DNA of 39,079 nt from a virus. How positions within the stretch are numbered: position 1 is the stretch's first letter; each line of letters begins with the position of its first letter. The translations under genes were made by a program, and so were the position numbers. Under the pieces are notes generated by a model that ran no database searches, was not told the origin of the DNA, and saw only the letters and a list, made by a program, of their open reading frames with translations. This document shows positions 5,131-15,067 of this stretch, piece by piece. The stretch lies in the IMG/VR virus record IMGVR_UViG_3300045988_151092. The stretch is one strand, 5' to 3'.

Positions 5131-5336
5131 CGAACCTTACTGTATCTATAAGAATTCTTTATAAAAGCATGATGATATTTGCCTTTAGATGAAGCGTTTA
5201 AAAGCCCTTCAAATATATTCTGTGGAACATTGTAGTAATCATAAACTCCAGAATGAAAGGCAATTCTTAAGGTAGCAGTACTTGAATCATAACCAACCGC
5301 AACTAAGTTGCTTGATGATACAGGTATCATATTCAT
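5127..5336 (-). CDS. KTSC-domain small protein, the only minus-strand gene inside the early operon
   Basis: SSNLVAVGYDSSTATLRIAFHSGVYDYYNVP..F..L matches the KTSC domain pattern. AGGAGG lies 8 nt upstream of the ATG at 5336. Confidence 0.6.
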   Translation of the reverse strand: MNMIPVSSSNLVAVGYDSSTATLRIAFHSGVYDYYNVPQNIFEGLLNASSKGKYHHAFIKNSYRYSKVR

Positions 5337-10495: not shown

Positions 10496-11104
10496 ATGAT
10501 GAATTTTATGGATAATTTATTTACTATTTATAAGACGGATGATGATTTTGAAAAATCTATAAAGGAAGAATTAAACAATATAAAGTTGGAACTAAATTCA
10601 GATATAAAATTTAAATTAGAAAAAGACCATTGTCCAGCTGTATCTGGCGAACTTGCTGGACAAGTTATACACATATTAAATTCTGATCCTGTTGGAGCTT
10701 TTATTAATTTATGTGAATTGGGTGCAATAGCTTATAATGTTATTAAATTTTTAAAAAGTAAAAATAAAGAATATAGAATTAGTAAAAAGTTATGCAAAGC
10801 TCTAGCTTTATTTAAATTAAAGAATGAAAATAAAGAATCAACTGAAGGGTGTAATTTAGATAAAGCTATAGTATATGGTCCAATGAAAATAGATAATATT
10901 AATGGAATAATATCTATGGAAGATTTTGCTATAGTTAATGACGCAACAGGAGAAATAGGGTATTTGATAGCTTATGCTTTTCAAAAAGGAGAAAAAAGAA
11001 CAAGAACAATATGGAATTTAATTAATACAAAAGGAGAAATTATTGTTTCATGGACTACTCAAACTTTAACAGAAAATCTTCCAGAGTTTTTTAAAAATAA
11101 TTAA
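10496..11104 (+). CDS. Orphan moron protein B (202 aa), no recognisable domain
   Basis: AAAGGA RBS. The upstream motif and the terminator are both shared with moron A. Confidence 0.7.
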   Translation: MMNFMDNLFTIYKTDDDFEKSIKEELNNIKLELNSDIKFKLEKDHCPAVSGELAGQVIHILNSDPVGAFINLCELGAIAYNVIKFLKSKNKEYRISKKLCKALALFKLKNENKESTEGCNLDKAIVYGPMKIDNINGIISMEDFAIVNDATGEIGYLIAYAFQKGEKRTRTIWNLINTKGEIIVSWTTQTLTENLPEFFKNN

Positions 11105-11116
11105 TAAAATTAATTG

Positions 11117-11150
11117 CCGTATCATTCATATGAATATACGGTATTTTTTT
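11117..11150 (+). terminator. Intrinsic terminator of moron B, a near copy of the one at 10085-10118
   Basis: The hairpin ccgtatcattca-ta-tgaatatacgg is followed by tattttttt. Confidence 0.8.
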
Positions 11151-11185
11151 ATTCAAATTTACAAGTGAATATTAGAGGTGATTAG

Positions 11186-11662
11186 ATGATAGATAAAAAC
11201 ATATTTAGAGAAACAGAAGTATTACTTAAGAACTACAGTAAGTTAGAATCAGAGATAGAGTTAATAAAATTAGAGATTAAAGATATACAGGAATCTTATA
11301 CTGGATGTGGAGCAATAGTATATAGTGAGAAAAGTGGTCCGACAAATAAGTTTAGTAGCATGGTTGAAGATGAAGTAATAAGGAAAGAGAAAGATCTATT
11401 CTATCTTAAGAGAGATTTAGATTATAAGGTTAGATTAAAGAGAAGAATAGATTTAGCTATACAAACTCTTGGAACAAAAGAAGAGAGAGATTTAATTAGA
11501 TTAAGATATATAAATCAACCTAAAGTTAGTTGGGGAACAGTTGCTAGACATTTAAAATATAATAAAGATTATTGCAGGAAGGAATTAAGACCTAAGGTTA
11601 TAAAGCAAATTGCAGATTTTGTATTCTATAATCCAGGAGTTCAAGAAAGGTTTATTATATAA
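11186..11662 (+). CDS. ArpU/RinA-like late-gene transcriptional activator
   Basis: The size, the N-terminal pattern (TEVLLKNY..LE.EI) and the C-terminal EERDLIRLRYI...W..VA..L HTH-like segment fit this family. Classically this gene lies just before terS. Confidence 0.65.
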   Translation: MIDKNIFRETEVLLKNYSKLESEIELIKLEIKDIQESYTGCGAIVYSEKSGPTNKFSSMVEDEVIRKEKDLFYLKRDLDYKVRLKRRIDLAIQTLGTKEERDLIRLRYINQPKVSWGTVARHLKYNKDYCRKELRPKVIKQIADFVFYNPGVQERFII

Positions 11663-11663
11663 A

Positions 11664-11705
11664 TATACCCCCTATTTATACCCGTTTAATACCCCACGTA
11701 TACCC
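11664..11705 (+). repeat. Four phased direct repeats of (T/A)ATACCC
   Basis: Copies start at 11664, 11677, 11688 and 11699 (spacing 13, 11, 11), immediately after the late-activator stop codon. Confidence 0.85.
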
Positions 11706-11820
11706 ACTTTTATGTGTTATTATGTAATTGTGGATAGGGTAAAGCGTTCATTGATGACCTCCTGGATGTAAATTAAAACTTAACTAACGGAAAAGCAAGG
11801 TGTAAAAGCCTTGCTAACAT

Positions 11821-11874
11821 GGAAGGTCACTAGCTGGAGATGCTTAAAGATGGTTCGAATCCATTGCCTTCCCC
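11821..11874 (+). ncRNA. tRNA-like element 1: acceptor stem, short GG-loop hairpin and T-arm, with no anticodon arm
   Basis: GGAAGGT (11821-27) pairs with GCCTTCC (11866-72). The T-arm is GATGG-TTCGAAT-CCATT (11849-65). The hairpin is AGC-TGGAGAT-GCT (11832-44). Confidence 0.4.
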
Positions 11875-11967
11875 TTTTATAAATTTTTAATCACAATTGA
11901 TAATTTAAAAGTTCTTATTTAAAAATCTTATTTCCCTTACATTGCAGGATTAAGTTCTTGCTTTTAT

Positions 11968-12056
11968 GGAGATATATCTCAATAGGTAGAGTATCGCTTT
12001 AGTAATGTTATAGGTTACTAGGGCGAAGGTTAGAGGTTCAAATTCTTTTATCCCCA
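11968..12056 (+). tRNA. tRNA-like element 2 (89 nt) with a 13-bp anticodon-type arm. Possibly a pseudo or atypical tRNA; the loop centre is TAT
   Basis: Acceptor GGAGATA/TATCCCC has one A-C mismatch. The D-arm carries A14, G18, G19 and A21. The arm pairs 11994-12006 with 12014-12026 around the loop GTTATAG. The variable loop is AGGTT, the T-arm is AGAGG-TTCAAAT-TCTTT, and the discriminator is A. Confidence 0.4.
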
Positions 12057-12187
12057 ATATTAAAACTTAATAAAATATCTCTTTGGACTTTAGGGGTTAC
12101 AGAGAGAAAAAGAATCTAGTTCTAGGTACTGGATTATTTTGTATTTAATAGTTAAATAAATATAAATTTACTATACATAGATATATT

Positions 12188-12196
12188 TGTTATAAT
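12188..12196 (+). promoter_or_regulatory. Extended -10 promoter element (TGtTATAAT) for the NACHT gene
   Basis: tgttataat lies 29 nt upstream of the ATG, with an AAGGGGG RBS at 12211-12217. Confidence 0.5.
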
Positions 12197-12224
12197 ATGA
12201 ATATATATTTAAGGGGGAATAGAA

Positions 12225-14243
12225 ATGGAAGAACTATTGAATAAAGGAATAACTTTGATAGCGACTACTTGTGTAGGTGAAATTATAAAATCAACTGTAA
12301 AAGAGTATGTTTCTCCACGATTAAAAACATTAAGTGACAATTCACTTTTAGATAAAGATAGAGTAAAAGTAGAAGAGAATATTTTGGATTATTTAGAAAG
12401 ATCTTATAAAAATAATAAATATATAAATACTATAGTGTTTAAAAATCAACAAAAAAAATTAGAAGATTTATATATACCATTAAAGGTAGTTAAATATATA
12501 GGTAAAAATGAAAAAAATAATTTTGAACTTTGTATAGATAAATATGATGAAAAGTTCATTCCATTACATAATAAAGTTTTGTTAGTAGATAATGCAGGTA
12601 TGGGAAAATCAACTATAATGAAATTTTTATATTTAAGTACGATTAAAGAAAATAAAGGGATACCAATATTAATAGAATTAAGAAAGTTAGATAAAAATAC
12701 ATCAATATTAGATTTTATAGTTAAAGAAATTAATGGAATTGATACTGAGTGTAATAAAAAGGTTATAGCTGAATTAATAAGAGGAGGTGATTTTATATTT
12801 TTCTTTGATGGATATGATGAAATAACATTAGAAAATAAAGATATTATTACAAAAAATATTCAAGAATTCATAGATAAAGCTCATAATAATAAATTTATAA
12901 TTTCATCTAGAGATGAGGATGAACTTACATCTTTTGGGGATTTTCAAAGATTTTATATAAAAGCACTTGCTAAAGAAGAAGCATATCAATTAATTAGCAA
13001 ATATGACGAAAATGGAGATTTATCAAAAGAATTAATAGATAATCTTGAAAATGAAGAAAATCTAAAAATATTGAAAGAATTTTTAGAAAATCCGCTTATG
13101 GTTTCTCTTTTATATAAAGCATTTGAATATAATAAAAGTATACCATACAAAAAGCACATATTTTATAAACAAGTATACGATGCATTGTTTGAGCAACATG
13201 ATTTATCAAAAGGTGGTGCATATAAACATATAAAAAGAAGTGGATTGGATATAGATGATTTTCATAAAATATTACGATGCTTAGCTTTTACTACATTGTC
13301 AAAGGGAATAGAATATTCAAAAGAAGATTTAATCAAATATATAGATTTTGTAAAAGAAAAAAATTCAGAAATAGAATTTAAAACGAGCTTTTTTATTTGG
13401 GACATAGTTCATTCAATACCATTATTCATAAAGGATGGATTGGAATATAAGTGGATACACAAATCATTTCAGGAGTATTTTGCTGCAGCTTATATATGCA
13501 ATGATTCTAAAAAGCAATCGGATAAATTTCTAAAAAAAATATCAAGTGAAGTTAAAATAGATAAATATTATAATATATTAGACTTTTGTTATGATATGGA
13601 TTACAAGAGTTTTTCTAGAAGTATATTATATCCTGTTATTGAAGAATTTATAAAATATTATAATGCTAGCTACAATAATCAATATTATTCTAATATTGAT
13701 GAAAAACATATTAATATTAGAAAAAGTCTAGAATTTAGTTATGAAAAAATATTTATAAAAAGATTAAATGAAAACACTAGGCATTTACGAATTAAAAAAG
13801 ACGTTAATGATACATTTAGTTATACATTTAGTGATGTAAATTTTGATGGAGCAGTTAAGTTTATAATAACTAGCAAAGATTCGCTAGGTAATTTAAAGGA
13901 AGTTGCAGCAAATATAGGTAGTAAAAGAAAAACATCATTAATGAAGTTGTTATACAATAAAAGGAATAGTATTGTAAGTGAAATAGAAGAAGTTAAGAAT
14001 ATGAAAGGAGATATTACAGAAATAGTTCAAAATTATGAATGGAATTTACTAAATGATGATGTAGAAAATATATTTAATAGAAAAGATAAATTTCTTATCA
14101 TACATAATTGGTTTCAAAAATATGCTTCAAATGATCTTGATGAAATACCTGCAATAATTTTTAACTATAGTGAGTGCATTAAATTAAAAAATAATATAGA
14201 TAAAGAAATTATTGAAGAAGAAAGTGACTTAGACTTTTTGTAG
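12225..14243 (+). CDS. NACHT-family STAND P-loop NTPase (bacterial NLR-like, candidate anti-phage sensor)
   Basis: Motifs seen: Walker A VDNAGMGKST (aa 121-130), ILIELRKL, Walker B DFIFFFDGYDE (aa 189-199), FIISSRDE, ENPLMVSLLY and HKSFQEYFAAAY. The N-terminal region (about 110 aa) and C-terminal region (about 240 aa) show no recognisable domain or repeats. Confidence 0.8.
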   Translation: MEELLNKGITLIATTCVGEIIKSTVKEYVSPRLKTLSDNSLLDKDRVKVEENILDYLERSYKNNKYINTIVFKNQQKKLEDLYIPLKVVKYIGKNEKNNFELCIDKYDEKFIPLHNKVLLVDNAGMGKSTIMKFLYLSTIKENKGIPILIELRKLDKNTSILDFIVKEINGIDTECNKKVIAELIRGGDFIFFFDGYDEITLENKDIITKNIQEFIDKAHNNKFIISSRDEDELTSFGDFQRFYIKALAKEEAYQLISKYDENGDLSKELIDNLENEENLKILKEFLENPLMVSLLYKAFEYNKSIPYKKHIFYKQVYDALFEQHDLSKGGAYKHIKRSGLDIDDFHKILRCLAFTTLSKGIEYSKEDLIKYIDFVKEKNSEIEFKTSFFIWDIVHSIPLFIKDGLEYKWIHKSFQEYFAAAYICNDSKKQSDKFLKKISSEVKIDKYYNILDFCYDMDYKSFSRSILYPVIEEFIKYYNASYNNQYYSNIDEKHINIRKSLEFSYEKIFIKRLNENTRHLRIKKDVNDTFSYTFSDVNFDGAVKFIITSKDSLGNLKEVAANIGSKRKTSLMKLLYNKRNSIVSEIEEVKNMKGDITEIVQNYEWNLLNDDVENIFNRKDKFLIIHNWFQKYASNDLDEIPAIIFNYSECIKLKNNIDKEIIEEESDLDFL

Positions 14244-14268
14244 AACTCTCATTTGAGAGTTCTTTTTA
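14242..14268 (+). terminator. Intrinsic terminator after the NACHT gene
   Basis: The hairpin agaactctc-attt-gagagttct is followed by a T-run. Confidence 0.8.
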
Positions 14269-14302
14269 TTTTACAAAACAAACGAATAGGTGAGGTGGTG
14301 AT

Positions 14303-15067
14303 ATGGCTAGAGCAAGAAGTCCAAACCGAGATAAAGCATTTGAGATATACAAGAATCACAATGGAAATATTGCTAATAGAGAAATTGCGAGAACTTTGGG
14401 CATATCAGAAAAAACTATATCTGGATGGAAAGCTAAAGATAATTGGAGTGATAAATTAAATGGAGTACTCCAAACAGATTTACGGAGTACTCCAAAAGAA
14501 AAGAGAAAAAAGGGAGGTCAACCTAATAATAAAAATTCAGTTGGTTGTGGAGCACCTAAAGAAAATAAAAATGCAGAAAAACACGGATTCTTTTCTAAAT
14601 ATCTTCCAGATGAAACTAAAGAGATTATTGAAGATGTTAAAGAATTAGATCCGATAGAAATCTTATGGGGAAATATACAAATTCAATATGCAGCAATAAT
14701 AAGAGCTCAAAGAATTATGTATGTAGAATCTAAAGAGGAAATGATAAAGGAGCTTAAGAAAAAGAAAGAACATACTGATGACTATGGCGAAAGTACAGAG
14801 GTAGAATATGAGTTCCAATTTGCTTGGGATAGACAAGCTACATTCTTGCAAGCGCAATCAAGAGCAATGAAAACTCTTGAAAGTATGATAAATAGCTATG
14901 ATGAAATGATTCATAAGAATTGGGATAGTGTTACTGAAGAACAAAAAACTAGAATTGAAGTGTTGAAATCAAGAATAGTTAAAGATAATTCTAAGAATAA
15001 TACTAACTCTACAGCTAAGTTAGATTTTATATTAGGACAAATTAAGGAAAGAAATAAAAATGAGTAA
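14303..15067 (+). CDS. terS: Terminase small subunit
   Basis: N-terminal HTH reads NREIARTLGISEKTISGWKAKDNW, and the GAPKENKNAEKHGFFSK motif is present. It lies immediately upstream of TerL. Confidence 0.85.
   Translation: MARARSPNRDKAFEIYKNHNGNIANREIARTLGISEKTISGWKAKDNWSDKLNGVLQTDLRSTPKEKRKKGGQPNNKNSVGCGAPKENKNAEKHGFFSKYLPDETKEIIEDVKELDPIEILWGNIQIQYAAIIRAQRIMYVESKEEMIKELKKKKEHTDDYGESTEVEYEFQFAWDRQATFLQAQSRAMKTLESMINSYDEMIHKNWDSVTEEQKTRIEVLKSRIVKDNSKNNTNSTAKLDFILGQIKERNKNE

What the first reader, a model, noticed from the sequence alone, without database searches (positions are those of the whole stretch)
11663..14302. A 2.6-kb cargo island splits the normally tight late-activator / terS junction and may be one RNA-plus-NLR unit
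In RinA/ArpU-type phages the activator gene is normally followed almost directly by terS. Here that gap contains, in one orientation:
- The phased TATACCC array.
- A hairpin plus an anticodon-less tRNA-like element.
- A long-armed tRNA-like element.
- The NACHT gene.
- A terminator.

The two tRNA-like RNAs end 350 and 170 nt upstream of the NACHT start. No other protein gene lies in the island.

My hypothesis, which is inference only, is that the RNAs and the NLR-like ATPase act together. The RNAs might be decoys, ligands, guards of tRNA integrity, or counter-measures to anticodon nucleases. Alternatively the RNAs may be phage tRNA relics unrelated to the NACHT gene.
Basis: inference. Interest (0 to 1): 0.7.

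Follow-up and report, generated by a model that had tools for sequence, protein, structure and literature searches.

The report
Phage tRNA-like leader plus NACHT moron

Summary
Observation confirmed; the main interpretation is not supported.

**What is there.** The window is a Clostridium perfringens prophage. Between the late-activator gene and terS lie three independent layers.

1. **Phage backbone.** Four phased ATACCC repeats match the proven binding-site format of RinA/ArpU/LtrC activators. A promoter-like -10 box follows, then two "hairpin + short spacer + tRNA-like" modules.
2. **A NACHT moron, about 12152-14270.** It is a short bacterial NACHT protein with an SNaCT5 C-terminus and its own conserved promoter.
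3. **A terminator before terS.** It is conserved upstream of terS in related phages whatever lies in front of it.

**Why this is not one unit.**
- A hairpin + tRNA-like module follows the activator in 59 of 74 related viral loci. Only 3 of those carry NACHT.
- The same slot holds other cargo elsewhere: KAP NTPase, PIN_8, an RmrA-like gene, recombinases, HNH.
- Four C. perfringens NACHT alleles have four different second-position RNAs: none, tRNA-Ser, a tRNA-Trp-like gene, and the long-armed element.
- Fifteen of 22 viral NACHT loci have no plausible module upstream.

**What remains interesting.** These anticodon-defective tRNA "top halves", each preceded by a hairpin, appear undescribed, and their function is untested.

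The parts
11186..11662 (+). Late transcriptional activator gene (a remote RinA/ArpU/DUF722-type 'Ltr' relative). It is context for the finding, not part of the island.
   Evidence: phrog_36 at 1.4e-24 and phrog_248 at 2.3e-7. TIGR01636 RinA scores 17.1 bits, below its cut-off of 31.9. DUF722 scores 14.6 bits, below its gathering score of 29.8. The precomputed Pfam label on the identical gene in other contigs is DUF722. The phiSM101 homologue is annotated 'probable sigma factor' through TIGR01636.
11664..11711 (+). Four phased (T)ATACCC repeats, inferred to be the activator's binding sites at the late promoter.
   Evidence: Searches give the positions. Each related lineage has its own phased repeats at the same place: TGAAAT in phi3626 and phiCp-B, TTTGTNACAA in phiSM101, TTCCCCA in CDMH1. 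Seven-nt direct repeats immediately after the activator stop codon are the proven binding sites in RinA/LtrC/ArpU phages (PMC3753634).
11715..11723 (+). Extended -10-like box TGtTATTAT with no -35. The last repeat occupies the -35 position. Inferred late promoter.
   Evidence: Read directly from the sequence. Similar TGn-TAnnAT boxes sit at the same relative position in phi3626, CDMH1, L031, L034 and L093. This is inference; no transcript data exist.
11794..11815 (+). Hairpin 1, separated by a 5-nt spacer (AACAU) from tRNA-like element #1.
   Evidence: It is conserved, with compensatory changes, in the 13 variants aligned from C. perfringens phages (20 unique variants were collected). Hairpins of unrelated sequence occupy the same position in C. 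difficile-type phages.
11821..11873 (+). tRNA-like element #1: acceptor stem, 3-bp central hairpin with a GG-containing loop, and T arm. It has no anticodon arm and no encoded CCA.
   Evidence: for the structure. On 13 variants, 98.8% of cells pair, 4 pairs change on both sides, and 0 of 500 shuffles reach the observed covariation score. It is 80-90% identical in PhiS63, phi3626, phiSM101 and phiCp-B, none of which has a NACHT gene.
11944..11961 (+). Hairpin 2 (GCAGGA-UUAAGU-UCUUGC), separated by the spacer UUUUAU from tRNA-like element #2.
   Evidence: The same hairpin precedes tRNA-Asn in L052 and L055, a tRNA-Trp-like gene in L136, and tRNA-Ser in CP51 and L135.
11968..12056 (+). tRNA-like element #2: a cloverleaf with a 13-bp anticodon stem. 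It is a chimeric and partly decayed copy of the phage tRNA that occupies array position 2.
   Evidence: Rfam tRNA at 44.6 bits. Flaws: A3·C70 mismatch, U10·U25 mismatch, two G·U pairs in the T stem, no CCA; the cloverleaf costs -22.4 kcal/mol against -24.3 for the minimum-energy fold. The 5' third is homologous to the L052/L055 tRNA-Asn; homology breaks at 11990. The 3' part matches nothing among the fetched loci.
12113..12142 (+). Degenerate copy of the terminator that closes the tRNA array in relatives.
   Evidence: Intact versions (AGAATCTAG...CTAGGTTCTTTTT) follow the array in phiCp-A, L017, L135 and L136. The window copy folds weakly, with z = -0.3.
12167..12196 (+). The NACHT gene's own promoter (TTTACT-18-TATAAT with an upstream TG).
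   Evidence: It scores 10 of 12, the top score in the region, shared with one minus-strand site. A TGnTATAAT box at the same place is seen in the upstream sequence of the L132, L135 and L136 NACHT alleles; homology with L132 begins at 12177 and with L135 at 12152.
12225..14243 (+). Short bacterial NACHT protein: about 65 helical N-terminal residues, a NACHT NTPase module, and an SNaCT5 C-terminal domain.
   Evidence: Pfam SNaCT5 at 1.2e-25; NB-ARC 24.7 bits; NACHT 24.1 bits, just under its gathering score of 26.7. phrog_18297 at 7e-172. AlphaFold2 mean pLDDT 84.1. Foldseek matches NLRC4 at E = 1.4e-13, then NOD2 and NLRP3. 1735 homologues at E <= 1e-10.
14242..14263 (+). Intrinsic terminator about 40 nt upstream of terS, followed by a CAAAAC box and the ribosome-binding site.
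   Evidence: The same arrangement, AGAACYC-loop-GRGTTCT then a T-run, CAAAACRA and GTGAGGTGGTGA, lies upstream of terS in most related phages with or without NACHT. L132 also carries it between NACHT and an integrase-like gene.
14303..15067 (+). terS, the terminase small subunit and first gene of the packaging and morphogenesis operon. It is context for the finding.
   Evidence: PF10668 at 1.2e-16. NF040601 at 268 bits against a cut-off of 120.

Best explanation
The island is a composite of three independent layers, not one system.

**1. Phage backbone: late promoter and RNA array.** The activator binds the four ATACCC repeats and drives a promoter that lacks a -35 box. Its transcript begins with an array of 'hairpin, 3-6 nt spacer ending in U, then G+1 tRNA or tRNA-like' modules.
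- In relatives, array positions hold true tRNAs (Asn-GUU, Ser-GCU, Glu-UUC, a Trp-CCA-like gene) or reduced forms.
- The reduced forms keep only the tRNA 'top half': acceptor stem, T arm, and a GG-containing D-loop remnant.
- Window element #1 is such a conserved armless form.
- Window element #2 is a chimeric, partly decayed copy of the tRNA at array position 2, with a 16-nt extension of its anticodon stem.

*Inferred mechanism:* because only the parts recognised by tRNA-processing enzymes are conserved, the modules are cut by RNase P at the U(-1)/G(+1) junction. The CCA-less forms are also cut by RNase Z at the 3' side. They would then act as processing punctuation for the late-operon leader, much like plant-mitochondrial t-elements or the mascRNA at the MALAT1 3' end. 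The upstream hairpin would be left as a protected 3' end.

**2. A moron of about 2.1 kb (roughly 12152-14270).** It has its own sigma-A-type promoter and a single gene for a short bacterial NACHT protein with an SNaCT5 domain.

*Inferred mechanism, by analogy with bNACHT01 and bNACHT11:* the lysogen expresses the protein. Its SNaCT domain senses proteins of a superinfecting phage. The NACHT module oligomerises, and the short N-terminal segment triggers abortive-infection cell death. No RNA partner is needed.

**3. A terminator just before terS.** It is conserved upstream of terS in this phage group. It probably insulates the packaging genes from cargo transcription in the lysogen.

The RNAs and the NACHT gene are adjacent because the stretch between the tRNA array and terS is the cargo (defence) hotspot of these phages.
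For: **Shown**
- The array format matches proven Ltr binding sites: 7-nt direct repeats immediately after the activator stop codon (PMC3753634). Each lineage has its own repeats at that place.
- Hairpin + element #1 occurs in PhiS63, phi3626, phiSM101, phiCp-B, CP51, 13 IMG/VR contigs and a Clostridium plasmid, with no NACHT annotated or detected there. In phiCp-A a true tRNA-Ser takes its exact place.
- In a survey anchored on the activator gene, 59 of 74 loci have a module 50-1500 nt downstream on the same strand; about 2.6 are expected by chance. NACHT is present in 3 of the 74.
- The scanner finds 125 hairpin-preceded modules in 1.17 Mb, against 7-10 in shuffled sequence.
- Among 58 unique module bodies, the base at -1 is U in 45. 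None of the 31 bodies of 60 nt or less encodes CCA, against 12 of 18 bodies of 61-78 nt.
- Element #1 shows compensatory changes. C. difficile-type phages keep the same architecture with unrelated sequence.
- NACHT homology blocks exclude the RNAs: L132 matches 12177-14267 and L135 matches 12152-14388.
- The RNA next to NACHT differs between alleles: none after #1 (L132), tRNA-Ser (L135), a tRNA-Trp-like gene (L136), the long-armed element (window).
- Fifteen of 22 IMG/VR NACHT loci have no plausible module within 3 kb upstream.
- Other cargo occupies the same slot: KAP NTPase/PDC-S20, PIN_8, RmrA-like, Bro-N, recombinases, HNH.
- The protein is a NACHT + SNaCT5 protein.
- In bNACHT11 the SNaCT domain binds phage proteins, and the protein was tested as a single expressed gene (10.1101/2024.12.17.629029 and 10.1101/2022.07.19.500537).
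- The terminator before terS is conserved with or without NACHT.

**Inferred**
- Processing by RNase P and RNase Z.
- The abortive-infection mechanism.
- The insulating role of the terminator.
Against: - No transcript or cleavage data exist for any of these RNAs. The processing role rests on shape and conservation only.
- NACHT alleles do recur directly downstream of the array in three phage lineages: C. perfringens, the L031/L034 type, and the CDMH1 type. A hotspot explains this, but a loose functional link is not formally excluded.
- The 13-bp anticodon stem of #2 pairs perfectly (three of the pairs are G·U). Random decay would not be expected to produce that.
- The window and L136 align continuously from the activator through two-thirds of NACHT. 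In that lineage the whole island has been inherited together.
- PADLOC 2.0 has no model that hits this NACHT protein, and its defence activity is untested.
- The activator's family assignment fails the curated thresholds.
- The terminator also travels with NACHT in L132, so assigning it to the backbone is not clear-cut.
Confidence: 0.8

Rival explanations
1. RNA-plus-NLR unit. The two tRNA-like RNAs are ligands, guards, decoys or co-factors of the NACHT protein, and the island moves and works as one system.
For: - The features are adjacent and on the same strand.
- NACHT alleles lie 150-350 nt downstream of a tRNA(-like) array in the window, L132, L135, L136, L031 and L034.
- All three activator loci that carry NACHT also carry a module.
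Against: - With a module frequency of 59/74, three out of three is expected about half the time ((59/74)^3 = 0.51).
- The partner RNA differs in every allele, and L132 has no second RNA.
- NACHT homology blocks start downstream of the RNAs.
- Fifteen of 22 viral NACHT loci lack any plausible module.
- In CDMH1 two genes separate the array from NACHT.
- The RNAs occur with many other cargos, or with none.
- bNACHT11, a characterised SNaCT-type NACHT protein, senses phage proteins.
Confidence: 0.04
2. Pure relics. Both RNAs are decaying phage tRNA pseudogenes with no present function.
For: - Element #2 has an A3·C70 mismatch, a U10·U25 mismatch, two G·U pairs in the T stem and no CCA.
- It is known from one prophage lineage only.
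- ARAGORN at relaxed thresholds gives it inconsistent identities.
- True tRNAs sit at the same array positions in relatives.
Against: - Element #1 is 80-90% identical across phages whose flanks are unrelated, and it shows compensatory pair changes.
- Damage is confined to the anticodon domain (deleted, shortened or lengthened), while the acceptor stem, T arm, U(-1) and leader hairpin stay intact in many independent lineages. That is the opposite of random decay.
Confidence: 0.12
3. Anti-defence or translational role. The array supplies tRNAs (Asn, Ser, Glu, Trp) to replace host tRNAs destroyed by anticodon nucleases, and the anticodon-less forms act as decoys for enzymes that target the tRNA body or the CCA end.
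For: - True tRNAs with CCA occur in the array.
- Phage tRNAs are known to counter tRNA-targeting defences (general knowledge; no paper was read for this here).
- The forms that keep only the top half would still be bound by enzymes that recognise the acceptor stem and T arm.
Against: - The 42-53-nt forms cannot decode and lack CCA.
- No tRNA-targeting gene is consistently linked to the array.
- The position at the very start of the late leader, with a conserved leader hairpin, suggests a cis role.
- There is no experimental support either way.
Confidence: 0.15
4. Cis-acting antitermination leader, comparable to HK022 put RNA or to the lambda PR'/6S RNA/tR' arrangement. The structured leader, or the activator loaded at the repeats, makes RNA polymerase resistant to terminators. 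Late transcription can then cross the array terminator, the cargo slot and the terminator before terS.
For: - A terminator with plus-strand-specific G·U pairs sits 35-65 nt upstream of terS in most relatives, leaving no room for a promoter after it.
- The only activator repeats in the window are 2.6 kb upstream of terS.
- No promoter-like site lies between 14264 and 14302.
Against: - RinA/ArpU-family proteins are described as activators, and in the S. aureus phages the terS promoter follows a terminator.
- True tRNAs can replace the tRNA-like element, which argues against a specific RNA-polymerase contact.
- Terminator read-through may simply be leaky.
Confidence: 0.1

Closest known systems
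Short bacterial NACHT proteins with SNaCT domains (bNACHT01, bNACHT11; Kibby et al., 10.1101/2022.07.19.500537 and 10.1101/2024.12.17.629029)
   Same: - Same three-part plan: a short N-terminal segment, a NACHT NTPase, and a C-terminal SNaCT domain (SNaCT5 here).
- Genes of this kind work alone.
- The SNaCT part diverges fastest. Between the window and L136 the NACHT part aligns at 76% nucleotide identity while the SNaCT part does not align.
   Different: - No detectable sequence match to any PDB chain or to PADLOC models.
- Encoded by a Clostridium prophage at the activator-terS hotspot.
- Activity, trigger and effector are untested.
Ltr late activators (RinA, LtrC, ArpU) and their direct-repeat binding sites upstream of terS (PMC3753634, PMC3152322)
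   Same: - A small activator gene lies upstream of terS.
- Two to four direct repeats of about 7 nt begin immediately after its stop codon.
- The repeats are lineage-specific.
   Different: - The protein is only a remote relative: TIGR01636 and DUF722 score below their cut-offs.
- The promoter is followed by a tRNA(-like) array and 1-3 kb of cargo before terS.
- A conserved terminator lies directly upstream of terS.
tRNA-like processing signals: plant-mitochondrial t-elements (PMC1920247) and mascRNA at the MALAT1 3' end (the latter from general knowledge)
   Same: - Acceptor stem and T arm are kept while the anticodon domain is dispensable.
- They are embedded in a longer transcript next to protein-coding genes.
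- An upstream structure is left at the new 3' end.
   Different: - These are phage elements, and no cleavage has been shown.
- True tRNAs alternate with reduced forms at the same position.
- Every module has its own leader hairpin.
Phage morons and prophage defence hotspots (for example the P2/P4 hotspots, PMC9122126)
   Same: - A promoter + gene unit sits between conserved late-region landmarks.
- The slot holds different defence-type genes in different relatives.
   Different: The hotspot is bounded on the left by a tRNA(-like) array and on the right by a conserved terminator + terS. Mosaic breakpoints fall inside the tRNA-like sequences.
Canonical tRNA (Rfam RF00005)
   Same: Element #2 passes the Rfam gathering score. 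Elements #1 and #2 both have a 7-bp acceptor stem and a T arm with a TTCRAAT loop.
   Different: - #1 has no anticodon arm and no D stem.
- #2 has a 13-bp anticodon stem, an acceptor mismatch, and is not called by ARAGORN at default settings.
- Neither encodes CCA.

Membership tests
Bacterial NACHT (bNACHT), short SNaCT clade | NACHT-type STAND NTPase module with Walker A and Walker B motifs | tested here: met
   The motifs GMGKST and FFFDGYDE are present. Pfam NB-ARC scores 24.7 bits (gathering score 23.5). Pfam NACHT scores 24.1 bits, just under its gathering score of 26.7. The AlphaFold2 model (pLDDT 84) matches NLRC4 (E = 1.4e-13), NOD2 and NLRP3.
Bacterial NACHT (bNACHT), short SNaCT clade | C-terminal SNaCT domain | tested here: met
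   PF22711 SNaCT5: 91.3 bits against a gathering score of 27, residues 458-662, full model length.
Bacterial NACHT (bNACHT), short SNaCT clade | Stand-alone gene with no conserved partner gene or RNA | tested here: met
   Neighbours differ across the window, L132, L135, L136, L030, L032 and CDMH1. Homology blocks cover the promoter and the gene only, plus the terminator.
Bacterial NACHT (bNACHT), short SNaCT clade | Protects against phage by abortive infection | not testable with these tools
   This needs phage-challenge assays.
tRNA (RF00005), element #2 | Scores above the Rfam gathering threshold with a cloverleaf | tested here: met
   44.6 bits against 29.
tRNA (RF00005), element #2 | 5-bp anticodon stem with a 7-nt loop and a readable anticodon; intact acceptor stem; usable in decoding | tested here: not met
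   The anticodon stem has 13 bp. There are A3·C70 and U10·U25 mismatches and no CCA. ARAGORN at default settings finds nothing, and relaxed runs give conflicting identities.
tRNA (RF00005), element #1 | Cloverleaf with D and anticodon arms; Rfam gathering score reached | tested here: not met
   The best match is tRNA-Sec at 16.4 bits (gathering score 47, E = 4.3). Only the acceptor stem, a 3-bp hairpin and the T arm are present.
Ltr (RinA/ArpU/LtrC) late-activator system | Activator protein belongs to the family by curated model | tested here: inconclusive
   TIGR01636 scores 17.1 bits against a cut-off of 31.9. DUF722 scores 14.6 bits against 29.8. PHROG phrog_36 gives 1.4e-24. The precomputed label on the identical gene is DUF722.
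Ltr (RinA/ArpU/LtrC) late-activator system | Two to four direct repeats of about 7 nt immediately after the activator stop codon, upstream of terS | tested here: met
   Four ATACCC copies at 11665-11705 begin 3 nt after the stop codon. The format is as described in PMC3753634.
Moron (autonomous promoter + gene + terminator in a late region) | Own promoter and terminator; present or absent independently of the flanking genes | tested here: met
   The promoter is at 12167-12196 and the terminator at 14242-14263. The unit is absent in L052, phiCp-A and CP51, which share the flanks. The terminator is also a backbone feature.
t-element / mascRNA-type tRNA-like processing signal | Acceptor stem + T arm mimic embedded in a longer transcript | tested here: met
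t-element / mascRNA-type tRNA-like processing signal | Cleaved by RNase P and/or RNase Z in vivo | not testable with these tools
   This needs end mapping or in-vitro cleavage.

The most novel reading that the evidence does not exclude
The 'hairpin, U(-1), tRNA top half' modules may be a previously undescribed class of cis-acting leader RNA in the late operon of clostridial Ltr-type phages. Anticodon-less tRNA mimics would be kept for recognition by RNase P, RNase Z or the tRNA elbow. They would set the ends and stability of the late transcript. Together with the activator, they might also let late transcription cross the cargo slot and the conserved terminator just before terS, giving a lambda-Q-like logic in Gram-positive phages. 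The array would also serve as the left-hand recombination anchor of a defence-gene hotspot.
Probability: 0.25. Interest if true: 0.65.

Novelty: new variant of a known kind. Interest (0 to 1): 0.4.

Why it matters
**For the NACHT gene.** It adds a Clostridium prophage example of a short bacterial NLR-related defence gene. It also marks the stretch between the tRNA array and terS as a defence hotspot in C. perfringens and C. difficile phages. That is useful for mining new defence genes and for choosing therapeutic phages.

**For the RNAs.**
- They show that gene finders and published annotations miss a conserved set of anticodon-defective tRNA mimics at the head of the late operon.
- One published record, CP51, even annotates an ORF over a tRNA-Ser.
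- If these mimics are processing or antitermination signals, they would change how late-gene control is understood in RinA/ArpU-type phages.

**For the screen.** Adjacency inside a phage cargo hotspot is weak evidence for a functional unit.

Tried and rejected
**Searches that found nothing or did not help**
- ARAGORN at default settings on the window: no tRNA. Relaxed or intron modes give inconsistent calls for #2 and a spurious call spanning hairpin 1 and #1.
- Rfam at E <= 10 on 11100-12300: nothing credible besides tRNA for #2.
- PADLOC on the NACHT protein: no hit.
- PDB sequence search with the NACHT protein: no hit. The bNACHT11 structure did not appear among the top fold-search hits.
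- Pattern search for other long-armed versions of #2: 0 viral contigs and 2 genome contigs, neither called a tRNA by ARAGORN and not examined further.
- BLAST of the region downstream of #2's D arm against phage records found only weak Listeria matches (E = 0.1). BLAST of the 3' part of #2 against all fetched loci found only short matches (15-19 nt, E 0.01-0.16).
- An eight-sequence activator alignment was too divergent to seed a locus search. It was replaced by a five-sequence alignment.
- The CP51 gp45 gene, first taken for an activator, does not align with the activators and was dropped.
- Literature searches for a prior description of these tRNA-like modules in Clostridium phages found none.

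**Ideas considered and rejected**
- *Hairpin 1 as the activator gene's terminator.* No U-tract follows it on the plus strand.
- *The inverted repeat before terS as a DNA operator.* Its stems contain G·U pairs that work only in plus-strand RNA.
- *#2 as an intron-containing tRNA.* The extra 16 nt simply extend the helix, and no consistent anticodon results.

Full report
**1. What the window is**

The window is a complete-looking temperate siphovirus genome or prophage of Clostridium perfringens.
- Its structural module is about 94-96% identical to phages vB_CpeS-CP51 and phiCp-A.
- The exact NACHT protein is indexed in 36 blocks of the assembly collection. The six places returned show the same surrounding genes, two of them on contigs of more than 1 Mb, i.e. 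within bacterial chromosomes.
- A truncated homologue 99% identical over its length carries the NCBI label Clostridium perfringens.

**2.

- The activator ORF (11186-11662) is followed 3 nt later by four ATACCC copies at 11665, 11678, 11689 and 11700.
  - The hexamer is not over-represented in the window as a whole: 10 found, 10.4 expected.
  - These four are the only plus-strand copies, and they lie within 41 nt.
- Hairpin 1 (11794-11815) lies 5 nt upstream of a 52-nt element (11821-11872). The minimum-energy fold of that element is a 7-bp acceptor stem, a 3-bp hairpin and a T arm with a TTCGAAT loop.
  - ARAGORN and Rfam do not recognise it.
- Element #2 (11968-12056) passes the Rfam tRNA threshold at 44.6 bits. 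Its anticodon arm is a continuous 13-bp helix with loop GUUAUAG.
- The NACHT ORF (12225-14243) and the terminator (14242-14263) are as described.

**3. The repeats are almost certainly the activator's binding sites**

- Quiles-Puchalt et al. showed this for RinA, LtrC and ArpU phages. Two to four direct repeats of about 7 nt lie immediately after the activator's stop codon. They are necessary and sufficient for specific activator binding and for terS transcription (PMC3753634).
- The window array has that format.
- Related phages carry different phased repeats at the same place, matching their different activators:
  - TGAAAT in phi3626 and phiCp-B;
  - TTTGTNACAA in phiSM101;
  - TTCCCCA in CDMH1.
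- The protein itself is only a remote family member: phrog_36 at 1.4e-24, with TIGR01636 and DUF722 below their cut-offs.

**4. The RNAs belong to the phage backbone, not to the NACHT gene**

*Published phages*
- The 80-nt block 'hairpin 1 + element #1' is 80-90% identical in PhiS63, phi3626, phiSM101 and phiCp-B. It lies about 130-180 nt after their activator genes. None of them has a NACHT gene.
- In phiCp-A, which is 91% identical through the activator, repeats and hairpin, a true tRNA-Ser(GCU) sits exactly where element #1 sits in the window.

*Wider collections*
- An exact-pattern scan found the block in 13 IMG/VR contigs and one Clostridium plasmid.
- A purpose-written scanner looks for a 7-bp acceptor stem, a T arm, and a hairpin ending 2-8 nt upstream. 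It finds 125 modules in the 1.17 Mb fetched, against 7-10 in shuffled sequence.

*Survey anchored on the activator*
- I fetched 80 viral loci with an alignment of five activators.
- With a relaxed scanner, 59 of the 74 loci with enough downstream sequence have a module 50-1500 nt downstream on the same strand. About 2.6 are expected by chance. The strict scanner gives 38 of 74.
- Only 3 of the 74 carry a NACHT homologue.
- In L093 nothing but the module and a terminator separates the activator from terS.

**5. What the modules look like**

- Each module is a hairpin, a spacer of 2-8 nt in the scan (most often 3-6), and then a tRNA or tRNA-like body.
- Among 58 unique bodies, the base at -1 is U in 45 and the base at +1 is G in 40.
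- The bodies form a series:
  - true tRNAs: Asn-GUU, Ser-GCU, Glu-UUC, and a Trp-CCA-like gene read by eye. Twelve of 18 bodies of 61-78 nt encode CCA;
  - cloverleaves with a shortened anticodon loop, called 'tRNA-???' by ARAGORN (phiCp-B, CP51, L031, L064);
  - forms with lengthened anticodon arms: window #2, and L066 with an insert of about 80 nt;
  - armless forms of 48-53 nt (window #1; the C. difficile 'GAACAGA' type);
  - minihelices of 42-43 nt.
- None of the 31 bodies of 60 nt or less encodes CCA.
- Damage is thus confined to the anticodon domain. The acceptor stem, T arm, U(-1) and leader hairpin are preserved.
- On 13 variants of element #1, 98.8% of cells pair, four pairs show changes on both sides, and 0 of 500 shuffles reach the observed covariation score. 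The sequences are closely related, so this is modest support.
- Stronger support comes from C. difficile-type phages, which keep the same architecture with unrelated sequence.

**6. Element #2 is a chimeric, partly decayed copy of the second tRNA in the array**

- Against L052, whose activator is 87% identical, homology runs 11181-11826. It resumes at 11944-11990, which covers hairpin 2 and the acceptor 5' strand and D arm, matching the L052 tRNA-Asn. It then stops until 14290.
- The 3' two-thirds match nothing among the fetched loci.
- The element has an A3·C70 mismatch, a U10·U25 mismatch, two G·U pairs in the T stem and no CCA.
- It is known only from this prophage lineage.
- The perfectly paired 16-nt stem extension remains unexplained.

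**7. The NACHT gene is an autonomous moron**

*Homology boundaries*
- DNA shared with other C. perfringens NACHT alleles begins downstream of both RNAs.
  - L132 (72% amino-acid identity) matches window 12177-14267.
  - L135 (70%) matches 12152-14388.
- All alleles keep a TGnTATAAT box about 35-45 nt upstream of the start codon.

*Upstream RNA differs in each allele*
- L132: element #1 only, then a terminator.
- L135, a chromosomal prophage remnant: a true tRNA-Ser.
- L136: element #1 plus a tRNA-Trp-like gene.
- The window: element #1 plus the long-armed element.

*NACHT loci in viral contigs*
- Six of 22 have a plausible module within 3 kb upstream. Five of them also have the activator there; in the sixth (L040) the activator was not detected.
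- One further hit, in L047, which has a distant 28%-identical homologue, is probably chance.
- The other 15 have none.
- Examples: L030, flanked by a recombinase and a membrane protein, and L032.
- In CDMH1 two genes lie between the array and NACHT.

*The protein*
- Pfam SNaCT5 at 1.2e-25 and borderline NACHT/NB-ARC hits.
- The AlphaFold2 model has mean pLDDT 84 and matches NLRC4, NOD2 and NLRP3 at E down to 1e-13.
- The N-terminal segment is short and helical.

*Comparison with known bNACHT proteins*
- This is the plan of the SNaCT clade of bacterial NACHT proteins. In bNACHT11 the SNaCT domain binds phage proteins directly and a short N-terminal effector causes cell death.
- These proteins were tested as single expressed genes.
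- Between the window and L136 the NACHT module aligns at 76% nucleotide identity but the SNaCT region does not. This fits the reported rapid diversification of SNaCT.

**8. The slot is a cargo and defence hotspot**

Between the array and terS, relatives carry:
- a KAP NTPase (PADLOC PDC-S20 at 2.4e-95);
- PIN_8 proteins (L068, phiCp-A);
- an RmrA-like M78+HTH protein (7.9e-161);
- a Bro-N protein;
- small recombinases and HNH endonucleases.

Mosaic breakpoints between phages fall inside the tRNA-like sequences. This suggests the array also serves as a recombination anchor.

**9. The terminator is a conserved feature upstream of terS**

- In most relatives, terS is preceded at -35 to -65 by this sequence of elements: a hairpin AGAACYC-loop-GRGTTCT, a T-run, a CAAAACRA box, and the ribosome-binding site GTGAGGTGGTGA.
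- This holds regardless of what lies upstream.
- Several stems contain G·U pairs that work only in plus-strand RNA, so the hairpin is an RNA-level terminator rather than a DNA operator.
- There is no room for a promoter after it. The only activator repeats lie 2.6 kb upstream.
- Late transcription therefore apparently has to read through the terminator. Whether that is leakiness or active antitermination is open.

**10. Mechanism, and what is shown versus inferred**

*Shown*
- The anatomy of the island.
- The distribution of the modules and of NACHT, and their independence from each other.
- The protein's family and fold.
- The fit of the repeats to known activator sites.

*Inferred*
- The late promoter at 11715-11723.
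- RNase P and RNase Z processing of the modules, with a t-element-like punctuation or end-protection role (analogy: PMC1920247).
- Abortive-infection defence by the NACHT protein.
- Insulation by the terminator.

**11. Verdict**

- Its fallback, that the RNAs are unrelated to NACHT, is right, except that element #1 is conserved rather than a relic.
- The NACHT gene is a new member of a known kind.
- The hairpin-preceded, anticodon-defective tRNA mimics at the head of the late operon are, as far as the searched literature and Rfam show, undescribed. They are the part worth following up.

Noticed in passing
window 14242-14302; L093 5270-5345; many loci: An intrinsic terminator (AGAACYC...GRGTTCT plus a T-run), a CAAAACRA box and the RBS GTGAGGTGGTGA lie 35-65 nt upstream of terS in most phages of this group, whatever lies upstream. 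G·U pairs show the pairing is at the RNA level. Late transcription must read through it, which hints at antitermination.
   Followed up: partly
L063 5543-6988; L068 5298-6653; L001 4841-5977; L118 3596-4756; L086 5466-6227: The same slot between the tRNA array and terS holds other defence-type cargo: a KAP NTPase (PADLOC PDC-S20), PIN_8 proteins, an RmrA-like M78+HTH protein, and a Bro-N protein. Several cargo ORFs of 269-360 aa (L065, L092, L114, L066, L052) have no Pfam or PADLOC hit and could be new defence candidates.
   Followed up: partly
L004 (CP51) 1703-1834: The annotated CDS phiCP51_0046 ('hypothetical protein') overlaps, on the same strand, a tRNA-Ser(GCU) found by ARAGORN at 1705-1796. 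This is probably a misannotation. The hairpin + element #1 blocks in PhiS63, phi3626 and phiCp-B carry no annotation at all.
   Followed up: yes
L007 3151-3239; L010, L015, L017 (same sequence): A tRNA-Ser-like gene shares its acceptor stem and T arm with the phiCp-A tRNA-Ser, but its anticodon arm is replaced by AUGAC-GGCG-GUCAU (a 4-nt loop). It is conserved in several C. perfringens phages and still encodes CCA in three of the four (L010 reads ACAA). SerRS does not read the anticodon (general knowledge), so it might still be charged.
   Followed up: no
L066 5129-5265: Another long-armed tRNA-like element. It has a normal acceptor stem, D arm and T arm, with an insert of about 80 nt where the anticodon arm should be, and it is preceded by the usual hairpin.
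   Followed up: no
L031 3650-3720; L034 3655-3720; L066, L068, L074, L076, L093 (about 5205-5262): A conserved 50-nt motif, ACUUUACGGCUCUUAAGAGCACUCUGUAGAGGUAYGGAGUAUAAACUA, follows the tRNA-like element in the C. difficile-type lineages. It contains two small hairpins and may be a further structured RNA or a protein-binding site.
   Followed up: no
window 11826-11831 and 11990; L052, L001: Homology breakpoints between the window and its closest relatives fall 5-10 nt into element #1 and right after the D arm of element #2. The mosaic junctions thus sit inside the tRNA-like sequences, as expected if they act as recombination linkers or attachment-like sites. Small recombinase genes are frequent in the adjacent cargo.
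   Followed up: partly
window 11724-11737 and equivalents in CDMH1 (L002 about 2531-2545) and L017: The motif (A/T)ATTGTGGA is conserved just downstream of the -10-like box in otherwise divergent C. perfringens and C. difficile phages. It may be an initial-transcribed-region signal.
   Followed up: no
window 13640-14164 against L136 4913-5425: Between two syntenic prophages the NACHT module aligns at 76% nucleotide identity, but the SNaCT-coding part does not align at all. This is consistent with arms-race diversification of the sensor domain.
   Followed up: partly
L135 2872-5848: A chromosomal prophage remnant in C. perfringens lies between a Peptidase_C11 gene and an ABC transporter. It retains only an activator fragment, hairpin + tRNA-Ser, the NACHT gene and a terS stub. 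The defence gene and the tRNA appear to have been kept after the phage decayed.
   Followed up: no
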